Counted from the first letter of the stretch, positions 1-30,605 are shown. The stretch is 64,000 nucleotides of DNA from Bacillota bacterium (GCA_023393125.1 JAEWMQ010000059.1:1-64000); one strand, 5' to 3'. The notes: generated by a model not told the origin, from the sequence alone. A program made the numbers and translations.

Positions 1-73
1 AGCGCGAGACGGGACTCGAACCCGCGACCCTCTCCTTGGCAAGGAGATGCTCTACCAACTGAGCCACTCGCGC
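1..73 (-). tRNA. tRNA-Gly (anticodon GCC)
   Basis: Reverse complement folds as a 73-nt cloverleaf: acceptor GCGCGAG/CTCGCGC, D-arm GCTC-AGTTGGTA-GAGC, anticodon arm TCTCC-TTGCCAA-GGAGA (GCC), T-arm GCGGG-TTCGAGT-CCCGT. CCA is not encoded and the feature may begin at the window edge. Confidence 0.85.
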
Positions 74-78
74 ATAAA

Positions 79-196
79 TCTGGCAACCACTTACTCTCCC
101 AGTCCGTCTCCAGACAAGTACCATCAGCCGCTTAGGTCTTAACCTACGTGTTCGGAACGGAAACGGGTGTTTCCCCTAAGCGCATCATCACCAGAA
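79..196 (-). rRNA. rrf: 5S ribosomal RNA
   Basis: Reverse complement reads TTCTGGTGATGATGCG...CACCCGTTTCCGTTCCGAACACGTAGGTTAAGACCTAAGCGGCTGATGGTACTTG...GGGAGAGTAAGTGGTTGCCAGA. This matches the Firmicutes 5S layout (CCGAACACG-GTTAAGC core, closing helix TTCTGGTG/..GCCAGA), ~118 nt. Confidence 0.85.
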
Positions 197-5023: not shown

Positions 5024-6673
5024 TTAGAGTCCTAATTTTTCTTTATTCTTATTCAGTATTTGTTGTTGTAATTCTACAAGTTTGCTATAGCCAAGTGCAT
5101 CACGTTCTGTAACATATTTATTAAAGATCTCATCAAACTCTGCATCTGTTTTGGCTAGTAACAATTTTGGAAGTGTTTCACCCCATAGTCTTCCTATTTT
5201 AAGACTAATTACTTCTTCTTCTGTACCAACTGATGGAGTAAGTCCTTCATATTGAGATAAGAATGTTGTATATGGGTAAGTCCATTCTTCTAATTGTTTA
5301 AGTGGTTCTTGTGGTCCTTCTGACCATTGAAGCTGCATAGCTAAGTCTTGAAGCATCCAGAATGTATCATCTGCACCATATTTTCTATCATAAGCTGTAC
5401 GATCTGTTTGAAGGAGTTCTTTTACTTCTGGCTTAACTACTGGCTTACCATCTACCATATCATAAGTTTCACCTTCTGGCCCTAAGAATACCATTTTTTG
5501 ACCATGTTCACTCATTAAATAGCTTAAGAACTCAATAGCACGGTCAGGTCTTTCACAGTTTTTAGAAATAAGTGTTACAGTCCATCCTGCAATACCACCG
5601 CCTTGTAGCACAGGATCATCTCCATTAGAATTTTTGGGTCCATCTACTGCTATATAGATGCTATTTGGATCATTGTTATAAAGGATTTTTTGTTCTGCTG
5701 CAATATCTGTTCTTTGATACATCATGGCAAAGTAACGACCTTGCGCTATTTTCTCCGCCATTTGTGAACGTTTATCAATGAAAATGTCATCAGCTAGTAA
5801 ACCTTCTCTACCTGCTTCATTAAATACTTTTAACCAATTAACGTAATCTGGATCTGTCATTCTATCATAGAGTTCACCATCTTTTTCATATGGAATAGCT
5901 AAAAAGTCTTGTAAGTATTTTTCAATTGTGTAGTTACCTGTTTCAGTAAATTCATCAAAACCAATTGGAATAAGTGGCTGTCCATTTACTTCTGGGAACA
6001 TTTCTTTTGCTTTTTTAAGAGCACCTAAGAAGCCTTCAGGCGTACTCATATCTGGACTACCAATGGCTTCATATATATCTTTTCTTACTAAGAAAGTTTG
6101 ATTTGAAGCAATGTTATCATACTTTTCATAGTCTTCAGGTGAGAATGATGAGTTTGGATAGCCATAGATATTACCATCTTCTTGTGTATACCATCCTAAA
6201 CGTGATTCATCAGCTACTTTAAAGAAATAAGGGTCATATTGCTCTGCAAGTTCATTGAGTGCATATACCATATCACTATCAATCATCTCAGCAATCTGAC
6301 CTTCCCACCAACCTAATGTTATAAGGTCTGGAAGTGTATCTGAAGCAATCATCGTATTAAGCTTTTCTGCTTCATTACCTGCTGGCACAATAAACTCTAC
6401 ATTAACACCTGTCTCTTCTGTAATTTTTTGAGAAGTTATATCTTCTCCCCATGGTGTTGTAAACCATGAGAAATTCATATACCATTGTAAATCCACTTTA
6501 TCATCACTATTTCTTTGCCAGCCTGGTTCATCTGCTGAAAGCTCAGTGCCTGTAGTTGTTGCTGGTACTTGTCCGCCTTTATCATCTGTTTTGGCTGAGC
6601 CACAACCTACAGCTGAAGTGACTAACATACAAGCCATAGTTGCTGCAAAAGTTCTTTTTAGTCTTTTATTCAT
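5024..6673 (-). CDS. Extracellular solute-binding lipoprotein of a carbohydrate ABC transporter (LplA-like, large SBP family 1)
   Basis: 549 aa. Lipoprotein signal with lipobox (…LVTSAVGCGS). Size and composition typical of LplA/YesO-like oligosaccharide-binding proteins. Upstream of two permease genes. Confidence 0.85.
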   Translation of the reverse strand: MNKRLKRTFAATMACMLVTSAVGCGSAKTDDKGGQVPATTTGTELSADEPGWQRNSDDKVDLQWYMNFSWFTTPWGEDITSQKITEETGVNVEFIVPAGNEAEKLNTMIASDTLPDLITLGWWEGQIAEMIDSDMVYALNELAEQYDPYFFKVADESRLGWYTQEDGNIYGYPNSSFSPEDYEKYDNIASNQTFLVRKDIYEAIGSPDMSTPEGFLGALKKAKEMFPEVNGQPLIPIGFDEFTETGNYTIEKYLQDFLAIPYEKDGELYDRMTDPDYVNWLKVFNEAGREGLLADDIFIDKRSQMAEKIAQGRYFAMMYQRTDIAAEQKILYNNDPNSIYIAVDGPKNSNGDDPVLQGGGIAGWTVTLISKNCERPDRAIEFLSYLMSEHGQKMVFLGPEGETYDMVDGKPVVKPEVKELLQTDRTAYDRKYGADDTFWMLQDLAMQLQWSEGPQEPLKQLEEWTYPYTTFLSQYEGLTPSVGTEEEVISLKIGRLWGETLPKLLLAKTDAEFDEIFNKYVTERDALGYSKLVELQQQILNKNKEKLGL

Positions 6674-16191: not shown

Positions 16192-17400
16192 ATGAAATAC
16201 CATTATAAACACACCATGTATGCCTCTTTTATTGGATATATTGTGCAAGCTATCATCAATAACTTTATACCTTTATTATTTTTAACTTTTCAAGCACTAT
16301 ATGATATACCCATTTCTAAAATCACTTTTTTAGTGACCTTCAATTTTGGAATACAATTAATAGTCGATTTTTTATCAGCAGGATTTATAGATAAAATCGG
16401 CTACAAGGCTTCCGTGATTATTGCCCATATTTTTTCAGCCTTAGGGCTTATATCACTCACTCTATTACCTGAATTTTTTAGTGATCCTTTTATAGGATTA
16501 TTGATTTCAGTCATGATTTATGCTGTGGGTGGTGGCCTTATCGAAGTGCTTATAAGTCCTATTGTAGAAGCTTGTCCAACAGATAATAAAGAAGCTGCCA
16601 TGAGCCTATTACATTCTTTTTATTGTTGGGGCCACGTAGGTGTAGTCTTACTATCCACCTTATTCTTTGTTTTATTTGATACTTCAGCATGGAAGGTGCT
16701 TGCACTCCTATGGGCTATCATCCCTATACTCAATACATTTTTCTTCGCAAAGGTTCCTGTTTCTCATTTAATTGAAGATAACGAAAATGGACTCACCTTA
16801 AAAGAAATGTTTTCAAAAAAAATATTTTGGAATATGATGCTTTTAATGATATGCGCTGGAGCAAGTGAACAAGCTGTTAGCCAATGGGCTTCAACCTTTG
16901 CAGAAAAAGGACTTGAGGTAAATAAGTTTATTGGAGACTTAGCAGGCCCTATGTTCTTTGCCACTATGATGGGACTATCAAGAACCTTGTATGGTAAATG
17001 GGGTGGGAAAATCAATCTTGAAAAAATGATGCTATGTAGTGGTTTTCTTTGCTTTTTAAGTTATCTTATTATTTCACTTTCCCCACTGCCTATACTAAGC
17101 CTTCTAGGCTGTGGCTTATGTGGCTTAGCTGTTGGTATTTTATGGCCTGGAACATTTAGCATGTCTTCTGCAAAAATGAAGAGAGGCGGAACAGCTATGT
17201 TTGCTTTTCTAGCACTAGCAGGAGATGTGGGCTGCTCTATTGGACCAACTGTGGTAGGTACAGTATCTGGCGTATTTAATAATAACCTTAGGGTAGGTAT
17301 TATAACTGCTACTATCTTTCCTGTCTTACTGATTATAGGCGTAATCATCTGTATGCTTATAAGCAGGCAACAAATACATAACTCGTCATATAATGATTAA
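16192..17400 (+). CDS. MFS transporter (12 TM), co-transcribed with the AraC regulator
   Basis: 402 aa, hydrophobic throughout. Starts 23 nt after the AraC stop. Confidence 0.75.
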   Translation: MKYHYKHTMYASFIGYIVQAIINNFIPLLFLTFQALYDIPISKITFLVTFNFGIQLIVDFLSAGFIDKIGYKASVIIAHIFSALGLISLTLLPEFFSDPFIGLLISVMIYAVGGGLIEVLISPIVEACPTDNKEAAMSLLHSFYCWGHVGVVLLSTLFFVLFDTSAWKVLALLWAIIPILNTFFFAKVPVSHLIEDNENGLTLKEMFSKKIFWNMMLLMICAGASEQAVSQWASTFAEKGLEVNKFIGDLAGPMFFATMMGLSRTLYGKWGGKINLEKMMLCSGFLCFLSYLIISLSPLPILSLLGCGLCGLAVGILWPGTFSMSSAKMKRGGTAMFAFLALAGDVGCSIGPTVVGTVSGVFNNNLRVGIITATIFPVLLIIGVIICMLISRQQIHNSSYND

Positions 17401-17420
17401 CTTGGGGGATTTGGCTGCAT

Positions 17421-17439
17421 AAATTGAAATTTGTAGGGG
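17421..17439. repeat. Left copy of an 18-19-nt direct repeat bounding the ORF-free block
   Basis: aaattgaaatttgtagggg matches aaatttcaatttgtagag at 18153-18170 at 16/18 positions. Confidence 0.4.
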
Positions 17440-17460
17440 CGTTTATGAAAAAAGGCTTGT

Positions 17461-17662
17461 GGGAGGAAATGGAAGGGGCAGGCCTATCTTCCAGTGTTCC
17501 GGTTCAAATTTTTTGAGGCACTAGGCTTACTTATTTGGATGAACGCACGAAAACTCCCGCTGGTCAGACACTCGTGCTAAAACCCATCCAAAACGTTCGC
17601 CAAGTGCCTCTAAAAAATTCTCCCAAGTCACCCTTCCAGATAGCCCTCCCCCTTCCATTTCA
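17461..17662. ncRNA. Candidate structured RNA: ~200-nt extended imperfect hairpin (6S-RNA-like or MITE-like)
   Basis: Outer arm 17461-17494 pairs with 17633-17662 (13 bp perfect, ~23/29 overall). There is an internal asymmetric bubble. An inner 16-bp stem pairs aattttttgaggcact (17506-17521) with agtgcctctaaaaaatt (17603-17619). Further inner stems are tggatg/catcca and gcacga/tcgtgc. GC-rich relative to flanks and ORF-free. Confidence 0.3.
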
Positions 17663-17748
17663 GCCAAACGTTGCCTAGCACATAAACGTCTCTACAGTGA
17701 GATGCACAGTGAAAAACATTATGCCCTTCCAAACGTACAAGCATAATA

Positions 17749-18130
17749 ACATATAGAGCTTCTTAATAGTTTGTTGTGGTAAAGGAGTAGCCATGCCAGT
17801 AGGGGATTGATGTGTGGTTCTTTAGATATAAGCTTAGTAATTCTTAATGGAGGGTTTCTCAGGCATCCCTTCAGCCTTAATAACGTATAAAGTTTCCTAA
17901 TAGTGGGTTATTGTAAAATAGTAGCTATATAGGGAGGCTAGTGGACTTGCTGGAAGATGCCTTGGAGCAGAGCTTAGAAACTCTTAATGAAGTAATCCTT
18001 ATGGGTTTTAGGGTGAGTGTCCCCGCGTAGCGAGTTTTCACCCGTTCATATGGATTACGAATTTAGAGTTTCTTAGCGGAGTGAGACAGCAGCTGTAAGC
18101 AAGTACACTAGTCGGACTACATAGCGGTGC
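17749..18130. repeat. Five degenerate tandem repeats (period ~60-95 bp) sharing an AGYTT...CTTAATRG core
   Basis: Cores at 17756-17768 (agcttcttaatag), 17831-17850 (agcttagtaattcttaatgg), 17891-17903 (agtttcctaatag), 17971-17990 (agcttagaaactcttaatga) and 18065-18079 (agagtttcttagcgg). Each is followed by a G-rich segment. Confidence 0.4.
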
Positions 18131-18152
18131 TTTGCTTTACGCCTTATTATTC

Positions 18153-18170
18153 AAATTTCAATTTGTAGAG
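18153..18170. repeat. Right copy of the direct repeat bounding the ORF-free block
   Basis: aaatttcaatttgtagag. See the left copy at 17421-17439. Confidence 0.4.
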
Positions 18171-18214
18171 TTAAATCATTAAGTCTGAACTTAATATAAA
18201 TAGATTTCTTTAAA

Positions 18215-18255
18215 TAGTAGAACATCAAAAAACACATCCTAACTTAGCTAGGATG
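18215..18255. terminator. Bidirectional rho-independent terminator
   Basis: aaaaaaCACATCCTAACttaGCTAGGATGTGttttttg. A 10/11-bp stem flanked by A6 and T6. It terminates the minus-strand flotillin gene and any plus-strand transcript of the upstream block. Confidence 0.8.
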
Positions 18256-18265
18256 TGTTTTTTGA

Positions 18266-20314
18266 TTAGGCCTTTGTGGTGGCCACTTCTAATTGAGTAT
18301 TTTTAATTTCTGCTAAAATCTGTTCTTTAATGCGCTCCACTTCCTCAGATTCCTGGAAACTTTCATTGCCGTTTAAAGCAGTTAGCTTTTCACTCATTAA
18401 AAGCATAATGAGGGATTCAAAAGCATTAACGCCTTGGCCTTCTCCTCCTGCTTGAATAACTGTCTTAGGTACGATGTCAATCTTACCTTCTTTAACAGCT
18501 TTAGAGAATTCACTCATCACATCGTTAATAACCTTGTACTGTGGACCACCGTAAGCATTAACTTGTTCTCTAGCAGCTATAGCTTTTGAGATACCTACTC
18601 TTGCTTCTTTATCAGCTTCGGCTTCTGCTGTTACTTTTATTCTAAATGCTTCACCTTCTGATTGCTTTTTAATCTTATAAGAATCTGCTTCTGCTAGGCG
18701 CTGAATCTTTTCAGCATCTTGTTTAGCTTTCATCAGCTCAGCTTTACCTTGGTTTTCTTGAATTCTAATATTAATATCAGACTCAGTTAAGGTGGTTTGT
18801 TGTTTAGCTACTGCTTCTGCTTCTCTTAATTCCTTTTCTTTTTCTGCTGCTTTTTGTTGGGTTTCGTAGGTCTCTAATTGCTCTTTAGCAATTTGTCTGC
18901 TGCGAAGCTGTGTAAGAATGGTTTCTATATTAGAATCTGAAGTTGAGCTACCTGGTGTACCAATAAGTACTTCTTCTAACTCTAAATTATAATGCTCAAA
19001 GCGTTCTCTCATCTCCATAGCACTTTGGCTCTGGATTTCATTTCTTTGCTGCAAGAGTTCAATGAGTGTTTTCGTTTGCCCTATATTTTTAAAGTAAGCA
19101 GAAATCATAGGATCTAAGGTTTGATCAACTAGCATCTTTACATTCCCAAAACGTTGAATAACATAAGGTGCTTTTCGATAATCAATATGGAATACAACAG
19201 ATAGTGGTAAGGTTGGCTCAAAAGCATCCTTTGTGATAAGACTAACTTCTTTAAGGTTCTCATCATATTTGTGATTCCCTGTTTGATTAGAAATCCATTT
19301 TAAAATAACATTGGTTGTAGGCACTTTTACAATGCTTCCTGCATAGGTATTAAAAGCATATTTACCTGGCATTAATGGCTCGTTCCATACCCCCCTATAC
19401 CCTTTTCCAACAAGTTCTCCGTGCTTATAATCATTACCAGAAGAATCTTCACCCTTTGCGCCAGTATAAGAAACAACTACTCCTACAAAACCTACTTCAA
19501 TGATTACTTTAGGAATATATTCAATAGTTGCAAAAAGTCTATTAATAAAATAAGTACCATCTGCTAAAACCTGATATTGTCTACCTCTATAACCACCAGC
19601 CTTTAAAAAGGCATCAATATCTTGAAAATTGTTATGATAATGTGGATCAGTTGCTACATCTCCTACTGTTGGACAAATAATATTGCCACTACCTAAAGAT
19701 GGTCCATCGTGGACCGTTACAATACCAATTTCATCTTTTTCCCCTTGAATGACAACTGGCCTAAAACCATTTCTATTTTTAATAAGCTCTGACATTTGCA
19801 TAAGCGTGTCTTGCTCTGCCCTATTACCTATTTTTAAGCAGTGCGTCTTATCTTCAGTAATAATCACAAATTGTGCTAGGTTAAAAGCATAAGTTCCCTC
19901 ACGAATAATACCTTGTTGTGGTCCTTTTTGTCCTTTATTTTGTAAAAAGGCCCTTACATTTTGAAAATTATTAGACTCTTTAACAATCCTGCCTAAAGTT
20001 TGTGTAGCTTCTAAAGACTCTCCGTCTCTTGCAAATACATAAGCTATTTTTCCTTGTGGTACTGTTACAAGAGGTACCGTATGTACCTTGTAGAGAAGTG
20101 GTGATTTAAAATGAATACCTCCTCTTAAAAGGTCAGGCTGATAACCGGCTTCTCCATTTAAAGCAATGATTTGCTCCTTTAGAGAACCTTTAGGAGACCA
20201 CCATTTTTCAACGATTCCTACTCTATCATTAGGGATAATTTTAAAACCAACGAGCCAAAAGAATAAAATAACTGCTATGATTCCTACTCCGCAACCTACA
20301 ATTATACTAATCAT
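18266..20314 (-). CDS. Flotillin / SPFH (band-7) family membrane protein, YqiK/FloT-like, unusually long (682 aa)
   Basis: N-terminal TM helix (IIVGCGVGIIAVILFFWLVGF), then an SPFH domain. C-terminal Glu/Ala/Lys-rich coiled coil (…KAAEKEKELREAEAVAKQQ…AEAEADKEARV…) typical of flotillins. Confidence 0.8.
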   Translation of the reverse strand: MISIIVGCGVGIIAVILFFWLVGFKIIPNDRVGIVEKWWSPKGSLKEQIIALNGEAGYQPDLLRGGIHFKSPLLYKVHTVPLVTVPQGKIAYVFARDGESLEATQTLGRIVKESNNFQNVRAFLQNKGQKGPQQGIIREGTYAFNLAQFVIITEDKTHCLKIGNRAEQDTLMQMSELIKNRNGFRPVVIQGEKDEIGIVTVHDGPSLGSGNIICPTVGDVATDPHYHNNFQDIDAFLKAGGYRGRQYQVLADGTYFINRLFATIEYIPKVIIEVGFVGVVVSYTGAKGEDSSGNDYKHGELVGKGYRGVWNEPLMPGKYAFNTYAGSIVKVPTTNVILKWISNQTGNHKYDENLKEVSLITKDAFEPTLPLSVVFHIDYRKAPYVIQRFGNVKMLVDQTLDPMISAYFKNIGQTKTLIELLQQRNEIQSQSAMEMRERFEHYNLELEEVLIGTPGSSTSDSNIETILTQLRSRQIAKEQLETYETQQKAAEKEKELREAEAVAKQQTTLTESDINIRIQENQGKAELMKAKQDAEKIQRLAEADSYKIKKQSEGEAFRIKVTAEAEADKEARVGISKAIAAREQVNAYGGPQYKVINDVMSEFSKAVKEGKIDIVPKTVIQAGGEGQGVNAFESLIMLLMSEKLTALNGNESFQESEEVERIKEQILAEIKNTQLEVATTKA

Positions 20315-20479
20315 TCCTTATCCTCCTTAATTTAACAACTGTATTGAATCATCTTAGTATAGTACAGATTGTGTACCATATCTATATAATAATTAAAATA
20401 TTATAAATAATTTATATTTTCTTAACACTAGATTTTCTACCTAAAAATGTTACGAACCAATTTTATTTTCCTCCCATTA

Positions 20480-20528
20480 CAAAAGCTCTATAACTAACTA
20501 AAATGATACTTCTAGTTAGCTATAGAGC
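20480..20528 (-). terminator. Rho-independent terminator after the nucleotidyltransferase pair
   Basis: AAAGCTCTATAACTAACTaaaatgatacttctAGTTAGCTATAGAGCTTT. A 17/18-bp stem immediately 3' of the stop at 20531. Confidence 0.6.
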
Positions 20529-20530
20529 TT

Positions 20531-21517
20531 TCATTTATAATAATAACTTTCGTAAATAGATTCTATTAGCTTTTGGGCTTTATCTTGTCGTGGCCTCTCT
20601 GGTAACTTGGTAAGCTGAGCTGCTTTATTAAAATGCTTTTCATAGCTATCTACAATTTTAAATATCTGGTCCCAGCTATACTCTCCATGCCTAATACTTA
20701 ATAATGTAGGTAAGTGTTTCTCTAATCTTGTGTGAATACCCTTGCCTTCTAATATATACGTGCCTGTTATCAGTATTCTTACTAAATGCATGGCATGCTT
20801 ATATAATTTACTTTCTTCTTTCTTATGATTACGATGTGTAAGCTTTTCATAGCTTTTGATAGTATTAGTCATATTGGCATAAATACTTGTGAAATCTCTT
20901 AAAGGGTAATCTTCTAAGTGAATGGTCGTTCTTAGATCTTGGCTCTCTCCATCCACATAAACGACTATACTGTCTTTATCAAAAGAAGTATAATCATCAT
21001 TAAATTGTTTAATTTGTCTGGAAATTGTAGCTGCTATATGCTGCTCCTTTAATACTTGGCTGGCACTATTTTGTGCTAGCGCATTTTGAAGTCTTCTAAG
21101 CTGAGCCATTGCATAACCACCAAAAGTATCTGCAACTTTTTGAGATAAGAAAAGCTCTGTATTGTCTCTTAGAAGCTTTCCTTGTGGTGTCATTTGATAA
21201 ATGCAATCTTCATCTATGCCTAATAATTCCAAGGTTTGGGGGTTGGCATTCAATCCTAATCTTACAAATTTCTTTAGGCCAAAGATAACTGTGTCTGTAT
21301 GAAGGTCTTCGTACTGTTCAAAGCTTTCTAATCCAAATAGTACTTCCTTTCCTTCTATGGTACAGCCACGTAAATCTATATCGCTATTTTCATATTGGGT
21401 TCCATAACCGTATGAGCCACTCACCACTAAATATAAAATTCTATCGCCTAGCGCCTTTTCGTTATTTAAAAACTCATAGTCTTTACTTTCTAATTGCTCT
21501 GTAACTTCTATTTTCAT
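20531..21517 (-). CDS. Pol-beta-superfamily nucleotidyltransferase, paralog B
   Basis: The ORF runs to 21529 (GTG). The probable ATG start is at 21517 (MKIEV…), preceded by AGGTGAG. NTase motif VSGSYGYGTQYENSDIDLRG (GS-x10-DxD). C-terminal helical region. 8 nt downstream of paralog A. Confidence 0.7.
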   Translation of the reverse strand: MKIEVTEQLESKDYEFLNNEKALGDRILYLVVSGSYGYGTQYENSDIDLRGCTIEGKEVLFGLESFEQYEDLHTDTVIFGLKKFVRLGLNANPQTLELLGIDEDCIYQMTPQGKLLRDNTELFLSQKVADTFGGYAMAQLRRLQNALAQNSASQVLKEQHIAATISRQIKQFNDDYTSFDKDSIVVYVDGESQDLRTTIHLEDYPLRDFTSIYANMTNTIKSYEKLTHRNHKKEESKLYKHAMHLVRILITGTYILEGKGIHTRLEKHLPTLLSIRHGEYSWDQIFKIVDSYEKHFNKAAQLTKLPERPRQDKAQKLIESIYESYYYK

Positions 21518-21525
21518 CACTTCTC

Positions 21526-22302
21526 TCACCTAATTAACCAATTTCTAAAACACTCATCTAATAACTTTGCCTCTTTAAGTGCTGTAGTTGGTTTAGCTTC
21601 CTGTAAATAGTCATCACAGACTAATAAAACTTTTTCTATATAACCAAGCAACTTAGTGTGAGGTCCTATGACATAAGCTTCATCTACAGTTACTTTTAAT
21701 TCTATTAAATATTTAATCTCTGATATTAACTCTAGTTCTAGATTTAAGCTTTCCATAAGCTGATTGATTTCCATTGGTGGAATACTATGATGGTTTAATA
21801 CATAATCACAAGCTAATGCACTTCGTAAAGCATAAAAGTAAGCCTTCAGTTTACCTAATGGCGTTTCCTTGATTTGTTGCACTTTGTTATAAGCTAAGCT
21901 TTTGTAGTGGTATAGTGCTGTTTTCTCATTAAAATAAATCACCGCTAATGCCATACATTGCTCTCTAAACTCCTTTTCTTCCCGATAAACAATCGGAGAC
22001 TGTAACCACTCCCATACTGTTGGGTTAGATTTTCTGATATGAATGAGTAGCTTTTTTAAATCCCAACCATCTACATCATATACCTCATCTACAGGAAGGC
22101 TTATATGGTCTGTTACTTCTCCTATGGTTAAATATTTCTCCAAAGACTGAGTATATACAAAACGACAATCATAATCTGAGTCAATCGAAGGGAACCCCCA
22201 TCCCCTACTTCCTGATTCTATGGCCATTAAAATATGAATGTGCTTTTCATTTTCCAGTTCATTTAAAGTTTGTTTAATATTATTTACAATCATTGGATTC
22301 AT
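21526..22302 (-). CDS. Pol-beta-superfamily nucleotidyltransferase, paralog A (ANT(6)/KNTase-like or RlaP-like fold)
   Basis: 258 aa. Motif AIESGSRGWGFPSIDSDYDCRFVY (GS-x10-DxD). Resembles the streptomycin adenylyltransferase core EGSR…DYDITYFV. Confidence 0.7.
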   Translation of the reverse strand: MNPMIVNNIKQTLNELENEKHIHILMAIESGSRGWGFPSIDSDYDCRFVYTQSLEKYLTIGEVTDHISLPVDEVYDVDGWDLKKLLIHIRKSNPTVWEWLQSPIVYREEKEFREQCMALAVIYFNEKTALYHYKSLAYNKVQQIKETPLGKLKAYFYALRSALACDYVLNHHSIPPMEINQLMESLNLELELISEIKYLIELKVTVDEAYVIGPHTKLLGYIEKVLLVCDDYLQEAKPTTALKEAKLLDECFRNWLIR

Positions 22303-22366
22303 TTTTTCCCTTTACCCTTCCTATAACTTTTCTTTATTATAGCTTATGTATCAAATTTTTTATGGC

Positions 22367-23011
22367 TTATTTATTCTCTTCTCTATACCAATAACTATGA
22401 AATCCATAATTTTGTATGATGCTATCTTTTGGTGTTTGTGTAATCGTAGAATAGATATTTAAGTAATCACCTATTCCAGTAAATATATTAAGCATCGCCC
22501 ATGAAATAAGGATTTGCGAAACTGATCTATTGCCATCAAACATACCCATGATCCATAATAAGTATGGTATAAAACCTAATACTAAATTAGGACATAAGGA
22601 CAACCATATAAATCTCCTGCGAGAAATAGGTGCATTACAATACACAAATGCTGCAGACTCCTCTTTTTTATACCAAATTTCTTTAATACTTTCTTTTGGA
22701 TAACAAATAGCATGTAGCCCTTCATGAATAGGAATAAGAGATAAACTTATTATACTAGCAATTAGGATGCCTCCTGCCAACTGTTTTATATTAATCTCCA
22801 AAAGCTGCACCTGCCATACTTGAATTTTTACCAGAATACCAATAATCATTATTATAAATATTGGTAAACTAATAAGTGTTCCTTTTATAAACACTTCTTT
22901 CATCGTGTTTGGTTCTTCATACTTAACAGCTATTTCAGGTAATCTCCCTGTTTTTAGTTGTTCTTCATCTTGATATCTACCCATGTACTTAATATTTTTA
23001 AACATCCCCAA
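22367..23011 (-). CDS. Membrane protein with HExxH zincin motif (DUF3267-like putative metallopeptidase)
   Basis: 214 aa, 3-4 TM. HEGLHAICYP motif between TM helices. Confidence 0.6.
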   Translation of the reverse strand: MGMFKNIKYMGRYQDEEQLKTGRLPEIAVKYEEPNTMKEVFIKGTLISLPIFIIMIIGILVKIQVWQVQLLEINIKQLAGGILIASIISLSLIPIHEGLHAICYPKESIKEIWYKKEESAAFVYCNAPISRRRFIWLSLCPNLVLGFIPYLLWIMGMFDGNRSVSQILISWAMLNIFTGIGDYLNIYSTITQTPKDSIIQNYGFHSYWYREENK

Positions 23012-24324: not shown

Positions 24325-25785
24325 TTATTTATGAAGTATACTAAGCCATGTCCATTCACCATAATCTTCTTCTTTTAGTAATAATCGACTTATATTGACA
24401 CCTAAAAATACTAATATAGTAATGGCTACAAAAATAAAGTTTCTGGTTTCAGAGGTCATATCTAGTTGAATAAAAATTGAGTTTAAAGGTAACAATCTCT
24501 TTAAGTTACTTGTGTACAACACAAATCCAATACCAAAGTTAGTCATACCAGCTAAAAATTGAACACTAAAAATGGCTATGCTTAATCTCATGATAAAACT
24601 TTTATCTAGGACACCTTTTTTACTTTTTCTTTCTCTCAGTATCCATGTTACAGCAAAAAAAGTTACCATGTTCATACTTATGCATAATACAGTACTTGCT
24701 ATCCCTTTGCCAAACAATAGCTCCGAACTAATGAATATTGTGTTTGTTAGTGAGGTAGTAACAGAACTGCTGATTAAAACTAATAATCCAATGCTAATTA
24801 GTCCTACTTTTGAACGTTTCATCTGTACTATTATGCTCCCTATCCCTACATTTAAAACTGTAGCTACCATACCTACCAATAGGCCAACAAAAGCCCCTTC
24901 TCCTAAACTCTTTAGACCTATACTTTCTATGTTAATACCCTCTTTAAGAAACGGAGTGACTATCATCAATAATCCTAACCCACTTCCTACTAGTACAGCC
25001 AAAGAACCTTTAGATACATATTCCTCATTTTTCTCCTCAAATTTTGGAGTAAATAAGCTCCTGCCAATCATATATAGTGGTACACTTAAGACCACAAATA
25101 AAATGACTATACTTATGTTGATAAGTCTCCCTATACCCAGATCTCCATGTGACCATATATATCGCTCTGTAAAAAATAGTCCCCATTGTTCCAACTGCGA
25201 AGATCCAAATGCATAGTTTTGATCTATTCCAAAACTAAACTGAGACATTGTCATAAAATTAATCAGAGCTAAGAAGATTGCTGAAGTCCATACAATTTTA
25301 AAATTAATATTTCTTTTTCTTTCTATATATTTTAGTACAATAAGTATCAGAAACCCTAATCTAAATACAATGATTCCTAATACCACCCACCTAAAATCTC
25401 TACTTAGCCCTATATCACTTGGTACTAACTTTTCAATCCACAGGCTTAATACAATCATGGGCAATACAAATAAAAATCCCCAGAAACCTATAAGCCCATT
25501 CCTAATACGGTTATTCTTAATTGTCTTAAATACAGTTCCAATTACACCCAAGATAATAAATAACACCATTGATATCTCAGAATTAATTTTTAGAACATCT
25601 ACTAAATTATCCTTTGCATATTCAAAAGAATAATTTAGTCCTGGTATTGGTTTAACTACACAACCAACAACTACCAGTCCTATAGTGAAAAATACATAAA
25701 CCCCTAAAATGACTACTGCTAAAACTCCCCACATACTTTTTCTTATTTTTACTGGTTCTTTTAAAATCTCCTGCTCCATTATCAT
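24325..25785 (-). CDS. Polytopic membrane protein of unknown function (≥12 TM)
   Basis: 486 aa, hydrophobic throughout. No recognisable catalytic or transport signature. Confidence 0.6.
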   Translation of the reverse strand: MIMEQEILKEPVKIRKSMWGVLAVVILGVYVFFTIGLVVVGCVVKPIPGLNYSFEYAKDNLVDVLKINSEISMVLFIILGVIGTVFKTIKNNRIRNGLIGFWGFLFVLPMIVLSLWIEKLVPSDIGLSRDFRWVVLGIIVFRLGFLILIVLKYIERKRNINFKIVWTSAIFLALINFMTMSQFSFGIDQNYAFGSSQLEQWGLFFTERYIWSHGDLGIGRLINISIVILFVVLSVPLYMIGRSLFTPKFEEKNEEYVSKGSLAVLVGSGLGLLMIVTPFLKEGINIESIGLKSLGEGAFVGLLVGMVATVLNVGIGSIIVQMKRSKVGLISIGLLVLISSSVTTSLTNTIFISSELLFGKGIASTVLCISMNMVTFFAVTWILRERKSKKGVLDKSFIMRLSIAIFSVQFLAGMTNFGIGFVLYTSNLKRLLPLNSIFIQLDMTSETRNFIFVAITILVFLGVNISRLLLKEEDYGEWTWLSILHK

Positions 25786-27485: not shown

Positions 27486-30400
27486 TTACACTCTTAATTT
27501 AATATCTATTTTACTTACTTGGTGACTTCTTACATCCTCAGCCATTTTACCTACTAACTTGCCTTCGGCTACTTTGCTAGTACCATCTTTGTAAGTAAGC
27601 GTTATGTCCATCACGTGAACTGTTCCTGGTATAATATCTTTCTTCTCTGTGAAGCTATAAACGACTTCAATGTCGCCTAAGAACTGACATTTCACTGTCT
27701 TATCTTCGCCAATCAAATAGGCTGGAAGTGCTGGTGTAAAGCTTAATGTTAATACGCCTTCTTCTACTTTAAATGGTGCTTCACCAATCATCATGATTTG
27801 CCACATATGAAGGAATTCTGCTGTGGAACCACTTAATCTTGCTACAAAGCCTCTACCGTGAATCTTTTCATTAGGATTTGCACTACTTGCTATAAAGGAA
27901 GAGTTTTCTAAAATACTTCTGCCATATATCTTTGGATCAAGAAATGGTACCAGTGCATTTTTAAGTGATTCAAAGTACTCTTCATATAAACCTGTTCTAA
28001 GAAGTTCAAGTAAATATTTGTATTCCATATGAAGCCAGATAGACTCATTTTCTAACCAACCTGGTGTAAAGGCTTTGGCACGGCCTACTTCAAAAGAAGT
28101 ATCTTTTAATGGCGCGTTTACCTTATACATTTTAAGCTCTTCATCATAAAGGGCACTTGCTTTTACTTTTGCATGTAGCTCCTTAGCTACTTTTTTACTC
28201 TCGCCCACTTTTAGATATCTTACTGGTCCTTCTAAGAAGTAAGGCATATTAATCACATTAAACTGACGAGGAATGATTACATCACCCTCTTTATCATACT
28301 CACTCACTTCATAAGTGAAGTAAGTTGGGCATAGCCCTTCTCCGTAAGCTATAGCCTTTTCAGTTCCTTCATGTAATTTTTCAAGCCATGACTCTAGAAT
28401 GGTTTCTATTTCACTGTTACTAAGTGTTTGTTTTTCTCCTTCAATTCCCCATAAAACAGCCGCTCTATACGCTTCTTTCACTTCATTTACTTGATTCCAG
28501 TATTCAAGCTCTGTGATTTTTTCACCTTTATAGCGTACAAGTGCTTCTTGAATCCCTTTAATAAAAGTCATCATTTCAGTTGGTAAGGTTACGTTTTCAG
28601 GATAGGCTTTAATGATTTTTAACATAAATTCTACCATGCGGTATAACTCATAAGTTTCTGCCATGGAGGAACCGAAAATACCTGGAAGACCATTTAAGGC
28701 ATCATACCAACCTGGTTTACCACCTTCCATTTCAATCCCCATACCATATGGATCTAAGGTAGCAAATTTGTTAGTAGCTAAAATCATCATTTTTTCAAAC
28801 AGATTAGAAGTATAAGTTTCACCCTTGCCGTTCTTTTCTCTGGCTACTTTATGAGTAACCTCTGCTTTAATGTGGTGATCAACTGCATTGTATTGTCTTA
28901 CGCCATTTTCAGTTAATACATAGCGCTCACTTCTTGGTCTAACAGTTGCCCGACTTTCAAAGTAAGTATAAGTATGATCATCAAAAAGTAATGCTTTTTC
29001 TGCTTCTGGATAAATCCCTAAATAACTTTCAATTAAGTCTATATTATAAGTCCAGTGATCTGTCCAGTAGCCTTCACCAAATACAGCTTCTGTATGAGGC
29101 TCTGATACTTTCATTAATTCAGAGATAAAATCTTCTCTTGAAACTTCTAAATCAACATTGTTATCTGTAAGAGCTTTAAGCACACCACCTGGTGTAAAGG
29201 CCTTTGATAGAAGTTCTTTAAGCAGTTCATTTTCTCCTACTGTTTTTAAGATAGTCTGTTGATTCTCTTTGGTCAGTGTATAGTTAACCCCTTGTACTCC
29301 TAGTGGATTATAACCATCTAATTGAATAAGGTTATAAAAGGTTTTAACATTATAGTCTTTTACAAAATCTGCAAAATAAACATCTAAACGTCTATTTTGG
29401 TTCACATCTCTAAAGTTAGCATTCCCTTGTGAATAGAACTCTGGACTCATGCTAAAGAAGTTGTAATCTCTTTCTGTATCTCCATGTTTACGAGAATAGA
29501 CGTGATAAATATTTTCTTCTCCTAACTTTAGAGGCATACCACCACGAAGGACATTATCAAGATAAGTTTGTTTACAGTAAGCATCAAATACTGGTGAAGC
29601 TGTCTTAGTCTCTATTACCTTGCAAATATCTTCTGTAAGAGCTTTGGCTTCTTGGTATTTATTTTCAAAGTAACTGCTTCCTGTTACCTTACTTTGGAAT
29701 TTTGTAAGCTGCATCTTATTTTCTACTTGCCCAATTAAACTATAGAAAGTGTATGTTTCTCCTGGACTTAAAGTCACTATGCCACTAAAGAAACCACATG
29801 GAAGTGCATTTTGACAAATTTGTTTTTCGCTAAGGTAGGCTGCTCTGTCTTTTGTGATAAAGCCTAGTGGTCTAGTAAGAGAAGTGTTTTGCATAAAGAC
29901 TACTTCACTATCCACTACTGCTGGCAATAACTCACCTTTTTCAGTCATTGTGAGGTAGAAGTGCCCTCCCTTAACTTCTTTAACAACAGCAGAGTCTTCC
30001 ATACTAGCACGTACGGAATAAAATGGTACTTTCTCTTCCACGTCTTGAACCTGCATCCACGCTTTAACGGTTTGTCCCATCATTTTCATAGCACCTAAAT
30101 CTACACCGTATGGAATCACTTGTGGCATCCCATCTAGGAATTCTACTTGAAGGGTTTTTTCACTAATATTTTTAAGAGTTACTTGACGTACTAATCCTCC
30201 GATTTCTTCATTTGGTAAAGTAAAATAAAGAGCATTAGTTTGAATCCCTTCCATGGGATTCTTTTCTTCTACTTCCATCTCGTTAGAACCAATATACATG
30301 ACTCTCTCTACGCCTTCTTCTTTGGCGTATTCATTATAAAATGGTTCATAGTATTTTCCATCTACTTTAAGGAAAGTTCTAAAACCAACTGTACTCGCAT

Positions 30401-30605
30401 TTTGATAGGCTTGCTGAGCAGCATGGAACTCCATAATGGAGTGATTTTTATCTCTTACCCCAAAGCTTGAAACACCTTGTCCTCTATTAACATAAAAACA
30501 CCAAATAGGAATCCCCATAATACCACTAATTCCTGGTAGAAAGCTAGCAAAAGTAGGACTATTGGTGTAATCTTCTATAATAAATCTGTTATTGTTATCA
30601 AACAT
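27486..30605 (-). CDS. Large cytoplasmic glycoside hydrolase/phosphorylase-like protein of unresolved family
   Basis: 1039 aa, no signal peptide. Acidic and aromatic-rich, with a length and composition typical of large (alpha/alpha)6 GH families (GH94/GH149/GH161-like). The family cannot be assigned by eye. Confidence 0.45.
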   Translation of the reverse strand: MFDNNNRFIIEDYTNSPTFASFLPGISGIMGIPIWCFYVNRGQGVSSFGVRDKNHSIMEFHAAQQAYQNASTVGFRTFLKVDGKYYEPFYNEYAKEEGVERVMYIGSNEMEVEEKNPMEGIQTNALYFTLPNEEIGGLVRQVTLKNISEKTLQVEFLDGMPQVIPYGVDLGAMKMMGQTVKAWMQVQDVEEKVPFYSVRASMEDSAVVKEVKGGHFYLTMTEKGELLPAVVDSEVVFMQNTSLTRPLGFITKDRAAYLSEKQICQNALPCGFFSGIVTLSPGETYTFYSLIGQVENKMQLTKFQSKVTGSSYFENKYQEAKALTEDICKVIETKTASPVFDAYCKQTYLDNVLRGGMPLKLGEENIYHVYSRKHGDTERDYNFFSMSPEFYSQGNANFRDVNQNRRLDVYFADFVKDYNVKTFYNLIQLDGYNPLGVQGVNYTLTKENQQTILKTVGENELLKELLSKAFTPGGVLKALTDNNVDLEVSREDFISELMKVSEPHTEAVFGEGYWTDHWTYNIDLIESYLGIYPEAEKALLFDDHTYTYFESRATVRPRSERYVLTENGVRQYNAVDHHIKAEVTHKVAREKNGKGETYTSNLFEKMMILATNKFATLDPYGMGIEMEGGKPGWYDALNGLPGIFGSSMAETYELYRMVEFMLKIIKAYPENVTLPTEMMTFIKGIQEALVRYKGEKITELEYWNQVNEVKEAYRAAVLWGIEGEKQTLSNSEIETILESWLEKLHEGTEKAIAYGEGLCPTYFTYEVSEYDKEGDVIIPRQFNVINMPYFLEGPVRYLKVGESKKVAKELHAKVKASALYDEELKMYKVNAPLKDTSFEVGRAKAFTPGWLENESIWLHMEYKYLLELLRTGLYEEYFESLKNALVPFLDPKIYGRSILENSSFIASSANPNEKIHGRGFVARLSGSTAEFLHMWQIMMIGEAPFKVEEGVLTLSFTPALPAYLIGEDKTVKCQFLGDIEVVYSFTEKKDIIPGTVHVMDITLTYKDGTSKVAEGKLVGKMAEDVRSHQVSKIDIKLRV

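What the first reader, a model, noticed from the sequence alone, without database searches (positions are those of the whole stretch)
17401..18265. ~0.85-kb ORF-free, GC-enriched, highly self-complementary block between an MFS gene and a flotillin gene: candidate large structured ncRNA or relic element
- **Composition and coding:** no six-frame ORF of 60 aa or more spans the interval. G+C content is visibly higher than the ~30 % flanks (runs such as gggaggaaatggaaggggcaggcc and ccccgcgtagcgag). In AT-rich Firmicutes that elevation is characteristic of structured RNAs such as rRNA, tRNA and large ornate ncRNAs.
- **Structure:** the block holds a ~200-nt nested hairpin and five degenerate repeats.
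- **Boundaries:** it is bounded by an 18-nt direct repeat and ends at a strong bidirectional terminator.
- **Known families:** I could not match it by eye to RNase P (no GAAAGTCCGGGC), tmRNA (no tRNA-like 3' end or tag frame), SRP RNA (no GGTCAGGTCCGGAAGGAAGCAGC) or group II intron domain V. It is the size class of OLE, ROOL and GOLLD RNAs.
Basis: seen in the sequence. Interest (0 to 1): 0.8.

Follow-up and report, generated by a model that had tools for sequence, protein, structure and literature searches.

The report
Mobile two-hairpin non-coding element
The ORF-free, GC-rich block is real: it is a roughly 750-bp insertion with inverted ends and two long mirror-image hairpins whose base pairing has been kept in evolution, and it belongs to a small, undescribed family of repeat elements in Clostridium-like gut bacteria rather than being one large ornate RNA.

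Summary

**What is there**
- The core is a 748-bp unit, 17419-18166, bounded by exact 15-nt inverted termini (AYAAATTGAAATTTG).
- It holds two paralogous long hairpins: H1 (17432-17696) and H2 (17924-18125). Their conserved tips are mirror images, so H1 reads on the minus strand and H2 on the plus strand.
- A 134-nt partial tandem duplication accounts for the "five repeats".

**Evidence that it is structured**
- In the 105-109-nt cores, 96.7% of cells are paired and 17 of 30 pairs changed on both sides.
- Across all of H2, 15 of 65 pairs changed on both sides and none is broken.
- There is no conserved ORF, no Rfam family and no phage or plasmid match.

**Evidence that it behaves like mobile DNA**
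- Close relatives with the same MFS/Band-7 genes and the same terminator lack it (64-nt spacer).
- Homologues lie in three to four other gene contexts.
- One contig carries a second copy 3.7 kb from the first.

**Verdict**
- Best reading: a new MITE-like "foldback" repeat whose ends fold as structured single strands.
- A pair of divergent small-RNA genes is the main rival.
- It is not an OLE/ROOL/GOLLD-type RNA.
- The terminator belongs to the host gene.

The parts
17419..17433 (+). Left terminal inverted repeat, ATAAATTGAAATTTG.
   Evidence: This 15-mer is the exact inverted partner of 18152-18166, and nothing else in the 64-kb window matches within 2 mismatches. Homology to L085, L088 and the second copy in L086 starts here.
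17432..17696 (-). Hairpin module H1 (265 nt); the better-folding "sense" strand is the minus strand.
   Evidence: The fold energy is -121.6 kcal/mol on the minus strand (z -8.3) and -112.2 on the plus strand. Against L085/L088, 101 consensus pairs are predicted and 15 of them changed on both sides. The minus strand has more G-U pairs in all three orthologues.
17509..17617 (-). Conserved core of H1: a three-helix tip with the GUUUUA/GU internal loop and the GAGUGU...GAGUUUUC loop-closing motif.
   Evidence: Covariance model R1 scores 109.3 bits on the minus strand and 30.6 on the plus strand. Covariation is shown.
17744..17877 (+). Unit A: a diverged partial tandem duplicate of the H2 upstream box plus the H2 5' arm.
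   Evidence: 17744-17852 is 70% identical to 17878-17992 (E 1.6e-10; repeat families D1 and D2). It is absent from the L085/L088 homologues.
17878..17923 (+). Conserved box TAATAACGTATAAAG(T/C)TTCCTA and a -10-like TAAAAT just upstream of H2.
   Evidence: The box is found upstream of H2 in the window and in L088, upstream of H1 on the minus strand in L088, and in unit A. A promoter role is inference only, because the promoter scan found nothing above chance.
17924..18125 (+). Hairpin module H2 (202 nt); the "sense" strand is the plus strand.
   Evidence: The fold energy is -81.1 kcal/mol on the plus strand and -75.3 on the minus strand. Against L085, 65 consensus pairs are predicted: 15 changed on both sides, 2 on one side and none is broken.
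17970..18078 (+). Conserved core of H2, an inverted paralogue of the H1 core.
   Evidence: R1 scores 102.8 bits on the plus strand and 20.5 on the minus strand. It is aligned with H1.
18152..18166 (-). Right terminal inverted repeat; it reads ACAAATTGAAATTTG on the minus strand.
   Evidence: Homology to L085, L086 and L087 ends here. In the whole-block fold it pairs with the left terminus.
18167..18223 (.). A 57-nt, 21% G+C stretch that is part of the indel relative to the empty site but is not conserved in the other copies.
   Evidence: It is absent from L096 and is unlike the right flanks of L085 and L087.
18224..18266 (.). Bidirectional intrinsic terminator of the Band-7 gene. This is host sequence, not part of the element.
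   Evidence: It has 21-nt arms that are 95% complementary. The same hairpin sits 27 nt after the MFS stop codon in the block-free relative L096.

Best explanation
**What it is.** 17419-18166 is one copy of an undescribed, ORF-less interspersed repeat. It is MITE-like, of a "foldback" type, and it inserted between the MFS stop codon and the Band-7 terminator.

**Architecture.** Each end has a 15-bp terminal inverted repeat followed by a 200-265-nt hairpin module. The two modules are inverted paralogues. On each DNA strand, the sense hairpin therefore lies next to that strand's 3' end.

**Shown**
- The termini.
- The two modules and their covariation.
- The strand asymmetry.
- Absence of the block from close relatives.
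- Occurrence in other gene contexts.
- At least two copies on one contig.

**Inferred**
- The element is, or recently was, moved by an enzyme encoded elsewhere.
- That enzyme recognises the symmetric ends.
- The hairpins must fold as single strands (ssDNA or cruciform, or an outward-reading RNA) for the element to propagate. This would explain why pairing and the tip motif are conserved in both ends and across species.
- When transcribed through, the element would also form a closed double-hairpin RNA, as described for the bcr1 repeats of Bacillus cereus.
For: **Termini**
- Exact inverted 15-mers bound the block, and there is no other hit in 64 kb.
- The termini pair with each other in the whole-block fold, z = -10.7.

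**Empty sites**
- L096 has the same MFS and Band-7 ends and the same terminator but only 64 nt between the two genes.
- L090 is 96.4% identical from 18286 onwards, has a 140-nt spacer and gives no R1 hit.
- L095 has a 175-nt spacer.

**Other contexts**
- L085 has the whole block (66% identity, same internal order) between an unrelated gene and a GNAT gene.
- L088 is 98% identical to L085, but its left flank switches exactly at the block end.
- The block is absent next to more distant GNAT homologues.

**Copy number**
- L086 has a second left end immediately after the BlaR1-like stop codon, 3.7 kb from the first copy. Its relative L087 lacks it there.
- Short-read contigs L001, L002, L084, L086 and L087 all end inside the block.

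**Symmetric structured ends**
- H1 and H2 cores align in inverted orientation. The consensus has 30 pairs, 96.7% of cells paired and 17 pairs changed on both sides; 0 of 500 shuffles reach this.
- G-U pairs are invariant at two positions.
- The sense strand is more stable in 5 of 5 hairpins.
- R1 scores 103-129 bits on the sense strand against 20-36 on the antisense strand.

**Non-coding:**
Against: - No unambiguous target-site duplication is visible at any junction (sequence inspection).
- No autonomous element or transposase with these termini was found. The 64-kb window encodes no transposase, integrase or reverse transcriptase among ORFs with Pfam hits.
- Copy number is low. There is one copy in 64 kb and none in about 1 Mb from 80 related Clostridium genomes.
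- At 748 bp the element is large for a bacterial MITE.
- The tips of the hairpins are more conserved than the outer stems, which is typical of functional RNAs.
- In L090 the non-homologous stretch (17364-18285) is wider than the block, and the MFS flank is only 86% identical. That comparison therefore reflects a recombinational replacement, not a clean insertion.
- Only about four independent sequences of the family are known.
Confidence: 0.55

Rival explanations
1. The block is a pair of divergently transcribed, paralogous small-RNA genes, each a 200-270-nt hairpin RNA: H1 on the minus strand and H2 on the plus strand. The near-palindromic 3' flanks of these genes would act as recombination or integration hot spots. 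This would explain the variable flanks without the block itself transposing.
For: - Covariation runs along the whole length of both hairpins.
- Unpaired nucleotides and G-U pairs are conserved.
- Each hairpin has a different sense strand.
- G+C is enriched as in structured RNAs of AT-rich genomes.
- A conserved box and a -10-like TAAAAT end about 5 nt before the foot of H2.
- Synteny breaks fall exactly at the 3' ends of the two modules.
Against: - Promoter-like sites are not above chance, and no terminator follows either hairpin.
- The box is in the wrong orientation for H1 in the window.
- In L085-L088, H2 runs straight into a GNAT gene.
- An RNA-gene model does not predict inverted symmetry with terminal inverted repeats, or a second copy 3.7 kb away.
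- Close relatives do without the block.
- There are no expression data.
Confidence: 0.25
2. The block is a single large structured non-coding RNA. It would be transcribed on one strand across the whole block, of the OLE/ROOL/GOLLD size class, or would be the structured 3' UTR of the upstream gene.
For: - The whole plus strand folds into a closed structure with paired ends and two long arms, z = -10.7.
- In 4 of 4 contexts a gene reads into the H1 side, with its stop codon 0-80 nt from the left terminus.
Against: - There is no Rfam match.
- On a plus-strand transcript H1 would be the antisense version, which is 9-16 kcal/mol less stable and scores 31-36 bits against 109-129.
- The central 230 nt is poorly conserved and differs by a 134-nt duplication.
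- The architecture is two plain hairpins, not a multi-branched ornate fold.
Confidence: 0.1
3. The block is a remnant of a rolling-circle plasmid or an integrative element. The hairpins would be single-strand origins (sso-like) or other sites active in ssDNA, such as attC-like recombination sites.
For: - These are long imperfect hairpins with conserved loop nucleotides and strand specificity.
- The H2 apical loop carries TAGCGA in all three H2 variants, close to the ssoA CS-6 motif TAGCGT (PMC4598088).
- The right end of L085 contains TTATGCCG, the first 8 nt of the RSB site.
Against: - H1 lacks the CS-6-like hexamer.
- The RSB-like 8-mer is in one homologue only, and it lies 3' of the hairpin.
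- Two origins on opposite strands make no sense for one displaced strand.
- No Rep, relaxase or integrase gene lies in the window or in the homologous contigs.
- There is no similarity to 72,556 plasmids or 50,697 phages.
- The hairpins are far longer than attC sites, which are 57-141 nt (own knowledge).
Confidence: 0.05
4. The block is a decayed protein-coding gene or otherwise functionless junk whose palindromes arose by chance or by replication errors.
For: The block is ORF-free, is dispensable in relatives, and contains an internal duplication.
Against: - No frame is conserved.
- A search with all open frames joined into one query found no protein.
- 17 of 30 core pairs and 15 of 65 H2 pairs changed on both sides while staying paired.
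- About 66% nucleotide identity is retained over about 750 nt between contigs with unrelated flanks.
Confidence: 0.03

Closest known systems
bcr1 and other group A bcr repeats of the Bacillus cereus group (MITE-like, about 155 bp)
   Same: - Both are ORF-less interspersed repeats in a Firmicute.
- Both have a non-conserved distribution among close relatives.
[quoted passage not shown]
   Different: - This element is five times longer.
- Its two stem-loops are inverted paralogues whose sense strands differ.
- No 5-bp direct repeats flank it.
- Copy number appears low.
- Transcription is untested.
- Sequence similarity to bcr1 was not tested.
Classical bacterial MITEs (Correia/NEMIS, RUP, ERIC) and MITE pairs that bracket genes (IMU)
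   Same: - Terminal inverted repeats, no coding capacity and intergenic location.
- Presence/absence among relatives.
- In L086 two copies bracket a GNAT-BlaI-BlaR1 segment, much as two IMU copies bracket a beta-lactamase gene.
   Different: - Most MITEs are under 200-450 bp and fold as one hairpin made by their two ends. Here each end is its own long hairpin, and the tip is the most conserved part.
- No target-site duplication and no parent IS are known for this element.
REP/BIME/REPIN elements mobilised by RAYT (HUH) transposases, and IS200/IS605 ends
   Same: - These are hairpin-forming extragenic elements whose structure, not only their sequence, is recognised on single-stranded DNA. REPINs are inverted doublets.
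- GTAG precedes the foot of H1 and of H2 in the window.
   Different: - REP hairpins are 20-40 nt, against 200-265 nt here.
- The GTAG is not conserved at H1 in L085.
- No RAYT or TnpA gene was seen.
- IS200/IS605 hairpins at the two ends lie on the same strand, not on opposite strands (own knowledge).
ssoA-type single-strand origins of rolling-circle plasmids
   Same: - Both are roughly 150-200-nt imperfect, strand-specific hairpins with a conserved hexamer in the terminal loop.
- H2 has TAGCGA, against the CS-6 motif TAGCGT.
   Different: - The RSB site is not conserved and H1 lacks CS-6.
- There are two copies on opposite strands.
- The setting is chromosomal with no rep gene, and there is no plasmid similarity.
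Large bacterial ncRNAs OLE, ROOL, GOLLD, raiA, HEARO and 6S
   Same: The size class and G+C enrichment in an AT-rich genome are similar. 6S RNA is also a long irregular hairpin.
   Different: No covariance-model match appears even at E <= 10 on either strand, in the window or in L088. The fold is two plain hairpins in inverted orientation, and the block is dispensable in close relatives.

Membership tests
Rfam families (OLE, ROOL, GOLLD, raiA, HEARO, 6S, RNase P, tmRNA, SRP, group I/II introns and all others in release 15) | A match to the family covariance model at or near its gathering score. | tested here: not met
   At gathering thresholds the window gives only 5S rRNA and a tRNA at 1-195. 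At E <= 10, 17200-18400 gives only generic hits to the terminator hairpin. L088 200-980 gives only sub-threshold miRNA-precursor-like hairpin hits. ARAGORN finds no tRNA or tmRNA.
MITE (non-autonomous inverted-repeat element) | Terminal inverted repeats at both ends. | tested here: met
   Exact inverted 15-mers lie at 17419-17433 and 18152-18166 and are unique in the window. The inverted similarity extends about 26-30 nt (I5).
MITE (non-autonomous inverted-repeat element) | Small size and no coding capacity. | tested here: met
   The longest ORF is 47 aa and no frame is conserved. At 748 bp the element is at or above the upper size range for bacterial MITEs.
MITE (non-autonomous inverted-repeat element) | Presence/absence at orthologous sites and copies in unrelated contexts. 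| tested here: met
   Empty sites are L096, L090 and L095. Other contexts are L085, L088 and the second copy in L086.
MITE (non-autonomous inverted-repeat element) | Multiple copies per genome. | tested here: inconclusive
   Two copies lie 3.7 kb apart on L086, and contigs break inside the block. However, there is only one copy in the 64-kb window and none in 1 Mb of related loci. A whole-genome count was not possible.
MITE (non-autonomous inverted-repeat element) | Target-site duplication flanking the element. | tested here: inconclusive
   A TAAAT occurs at 17420-17424 and at 18172-18176 but is not in register with the termini. No consistent duplication is seen in L085, L086 or L088.
MITE (non-autonomous inverted-repeat element) | A parent autonomous element with the same ends. 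| not testable with these tools
   None was found in the window, in 96 loci, or in the plasmid, phage and viral collections. The genome and metagenome scans were exhausted.
bcr1-type structured repeats | A double stem-loop kept by compensatory changes. | tested here: met
   The feature is as described in PMC3184786.
bcr1-type structured repeats | 5-bp flanking direct repeats, transcription, and sequence homology to bcr1. | not tested
   No clear direct repeats were seen, there are no expression data, and the bcr1 sequence was not compared. The claim is "works like", not membership.
ssoA single-strand origin | The RSB site (TTATGCCGAGAAAATTT) and CS-6 (TAGCGT) in the terminal loop, on a rolling-circle replicon. 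| tested here: not met
   CS-6-like TAGCGA occurs only in H2. RSB is represented only by an 8-mer in L085, outside the hairpin. No rep gene or plasmid similarity was found.
Integron attC site | A 57-141-nt imperfect palindrome next to cassettes and an IntI integrase. | tested here: not met
   The hairpins are 202-265 nt. No integrase lies in the window or on the homologous contigs. The attC size range is from own knowledge.

The most novel reading that the evidence does not exclude
The block may represent a new kind of bacterial mobile element. On this reading, each end carries a long, evolutionarily maintained hairpin module that works as a folded single strand.
- The module could be a structure-specific DNA substrate for an unknown recombinase.
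- Alternatively it could be an outward-reading structured RNA at each end (antisense-, guide- or bridge-like) that takes part in the element's own mobility or in control of neighbouring genes.

The module would be a functional nucleic-acid machine, not a by-product of inverted repeats.
Probability: 0.2. Interest if true: 0.75.

Novelty: new member of a known kind. Interest (0 to 1): 0.5.

Why it matters
- If the reading is right, this adds a structured, low-copy repeat family in gut Clostridium relatives to the short list of bacterial repeats whose secondary structure is demonstrably under selection. bcr1 is the best known of these.
- The symmetric hairpin-module ends have no described equivalent.
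- The element marks synteny breakpoints and, in one contig, brackets a GNAT-BlaI-BlaR1 gene set. It may therefore help shuffle accessory genes.
- It is a cautionary case for ncRNA discovery based on G+C content and intergenic length. Such screens will pick up elements like this alongside true RNA genes.

Tried and rejected
- **Rfam.** Gathering and E <= 10 scans on the window and on L088 gave nothing. ARAGORN gave nothing.
- **Phage and plasmid collections.** blastn in "distant" mode with the window block and the L088 block gave only a 71-nt AT-rich Borrelia hit.
- **Band-7 synteny.** 80 genome loci have neither the block nor the MFS/RlaP neighbours.
- **Viral contig scans.** Five patterns were tried. 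They gave one chance hit in coding sequence (L083) and otherwise nothing.
- **Link to the RNA-repair-type neighbours (two RlaP genes).** I considered a Y-RNA-like partner. I dropped the idea because homologous blocks lie beside unrelated genes, and because L090 and L096 keep the Band-7 gene (L090 the whole operon) without the block.
- **Small conserved ORF or type I toxin.** Rejected by tblastx.
- **Spurious-ORF trick.** A protein search with all open frames joined into one query found no hit.
- **L011 blastn hit.** It lies in coding sequence and is a chance match.
- **Promoter and terminator scan.** Nothing rose above the shuffled expectation.
- **Global alignment of the L090 spacer to the window.** It was meaningless because the spacers are not alignable.
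- **Clean target-site duplication.** None was found.

Full report
**Observation**

The interval 17401-18265 lies between the 3' ends of two convergent genes. One is an MFS transporter (16192-17400, +). The other is a 682-aa SPFH/Band-7 protein (18266-20314, -).
- The interval has no ORF longer than 47 aa.
- The core of the interval has 42.4% G+C, against a window mean of 33.9%. Only 0.2% of 748-nt windows reach that value. The excess sits in two segments of 48% and 46% G+C.
- Self-comparison shows two long imperfect palindromes: 17432-17696 (H1) and 17924-18125 (H2).
- It also shows a 134-nt tandem duplication (17744-17852 versus 17878-17992, 70% identical) and the terminator palindrome at 18224-18266.
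- Both hairpins fold far better than shuffled controls, with z from -5.4 to -8.8.

The "18-nt direct repeat" is a near-palindromic terminal inverted repeat. It consists of exact 15-mers AYAAATTGAAATTTG at 17419-17433 (+) and 18152-18166 (-), and nothing else in 64 kb matches within two mismatches.

**The two hairpins are inverted paralogues**

The tip of H1 read on the minus strand matches the tip of H2 read on the plus strand. The shared motif is ATGGGTTTTAG-stem-GAGTGTC...GAGTTTTC-stem-CGTTCAT, and the stem letters differ in a compensatory way.

**Homologues**

No Rfam family matches on either strand, even at E <= 10. No phage or plasmid record is similar. Eighty genomes with an 80%-or-lower Band-7 orthologue have neither the block nor the same neighbours.

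A metagenome scan with the tip motif found contig L085. It carries the whole block with the same internal order, at 66% identity over about 750 nt, between unrelated genes. Contigs holding its GNAT neighbour gave three more sequences:
- L088 is 98% identical to L085, but its left flank changes exactly at the block end.
- L086 is 99% identical to L085.
- L087 holds only the right end.

**Structure is under selection**
- An alignment of six 105-109-nt cores (three H1, three H2) supports a three-helix hairpin of 30 pairs. 96.7% of cells are paired, 17 pairs changed on both sides, and the covariation score is 0.58 against 0.25 in shuffles (0 of 500 as high). The signal collapses when the partners are slid by one to three columns.
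- Over the full hairpins, H2 of the window against H2 of L085 has 65 pairs: 15 changed on both sides, 2 on one side, and none broken. H1 has 101 pairs, 15 of them changed on both sides.
- No reading frame is conserved.

With only about four independent sequences, the numbers are small. The pattern is nevertheless consistent in every helix.

**Strand**
- Two G-U pairs are invariant.
- The strand carrying the motif is 6-21 kcal/mol more stable and has more G-U pairs in 5 of 5 hairpins.
- A covariance model of the core scores 103-129 bits on that strand and 20-36 on the other.

H1 is therefore "sense" on the minus strand and H2 on the plus strand. On each strand the sense hairpin sits next to that strand's 3' end of the block.

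**The block is an insertion-like, repeated unit**
- L096 has an MFS gene 89% identical in protein, plus the same Band-7 3' end and the same terminator hairpin as the window. It has only 64 nt between the two genes.
- L090 is 96.4% identical in DNA from 18286 onwards and keeps the Band-7/RlaP/RlaP/DUF3267 gene order. It has a 140-nt spacer and no model hit. Its MFS side is only 86% identical, so that comparison reflects a replacement rather than a clean insertion.
- L095 also lacks the block.
- On L086 a second left end (AAATTGAAATTTGTCTTGGCGTTTATGAGA) begins right after the stop codon of the BlaR1-like gene, 3.7 kb from the first copy. The relative L087 has no such sequence there.
- Five short-read contigs end inside the block, as expected for a repeat or a polymorphic segment.
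- In all four contexts a gene reads into the H1 side, with its stop codon 0-80 nt from the terminus.
- The same spacer received an IS insertion in two other relatives.
- The window encodes no transposase, integrase or reverse transcriptase among ORFs with Pfam hits.

**Interpretation**

Several features together are the signature of a non-autonomous interspersed repeat:
- inverted termini;
- mirror-image subterminal modules;
- lack of coding capacity;
- absence from close relatives;
- several gene contexts;
- more than one copy on one contig.

The element is most like the structured bcr1 repeats of Bacillus cereus. Those have two independent stem-loops kept by compensatory changes, and a non-conserved distribution among relatives (PMC3184786). 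The pair of copies that bracket genes resembles IMU elements.

Both ends keep the same tip motif in inverted orientation, and pairing has been kept since the H1/H2 split and since the split between the window and L085. I therefore infer that the folded module is needed for the element's own propagation, through recognition of its symmetric ends. It would fold as ssDNA or a cruciform, or as an outward-reading RNA. This step is inference. No enzyme, no target duplication and no expression data are available.

The main rival is a pair of divergent small-RNA genes whose 3' flanks are recombination hot spots. In its favour, the tips are the most conserved part, and a -10-like box ends just before H2. 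Against it:
- there are no significant promoter or terminator signals;
- the block has terminal inverted repeats;
- there is a second nearby copy;
- close relatives do without the block.

A single large ornate RNA is unlikely, because H1 would be antisense on a plus-strand transcript and the centre is not conserved. An sso-like origin was considered because H2's loop holds TAGCGA. The defining RSB and CS-6 pair, the plasmid context and the orientation logic are all missing.

**Verdict**

The feature is real and structured, and I found no described family that matches it. It is best filed as a new family of a known kind, the structured MITE-like repeat, rather than as a new large ncRNA class. 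The terminator at 18224-18266 is host sequence.

Noticed in passing
window 18021-18024 and 18051; L001 4490-4598: The same-species metagenome contig L001 is identical to the window over about 320 nt, with two exceptions. Four consecutive bases in the H2 apical loop differ (CCCC to TTGA). T18051A closes a U-U mismatch in the stem. A clustered four-base change in a loop is odd for point mutation; it could reflect exchange with another copy.
   Followed up: partly
window 18266-23011 (-); L090 2557-7307: The gene row DUF3267, RlaP, RlaP-like and a 682-aa SPFH/Band-7 protein is conserved in L090. It is not found next to the Band-7 orthologues of 80 other Clostridium genomes. Two "RNA repair pathway" nucleotidyltransferases beside an SPFH protein might form an accessory (defence or repair) module.
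   Followed up: partly
L092 3034-3265; L091 3890-3947: In two relatives the same MFS/Band-7 spacer carries an insertion sequence. Its end reads GGGG(A/C)TGTCGCG..AATTAATCA, followed by an ORF starting MKDIVKQQKQYTELRGDYQLPLPIDFETAVAPDDSVRLL. The spot next to the terminator is therefore an insertion hot spot. In L091 the IS follows about 50 nt that weakly resemble the block's left end.
   Followed up: partly
L088 257-330 versus L085 94-170: L088 and L085 are 98% identical across the block and the GNAT gene. However, the outermost 60 nt or so of the left end are clearly more diverged, and the left flank is a different gene. This looks like recombination between different copies of the element.
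   Followed up: no
L086 1-4234: Two block copies in the same orientation bracket a GNAT acetyltransferase, a BlaI-like repressor and a BlaR1-like sensor peptidase. This layout resembles a composite unit.
   Followed up: partly
window 18167-18223: A 57-nt stretch of only 21% G+C lies between the right terminus and the terminator. It is absent from the empty site L096 and is not shared with the other copies. Its origin is unexplained.
   Followed up: no
window 1-195: A tRNA (1-73, -) and a 5S rRNA (78-195, -) lie at the window edge, so the window starts at the end of an rRNA operon.
   Followed up: no
window 5024-6673, 24325-25785, 27486-30605 (all -): Three long ORFs (549, 486 and 1039 aa) have no Pfam family at E <= 1e-5. 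They sit among glycoside-hydrolase and sugar-transport genes.
   Followed up: no
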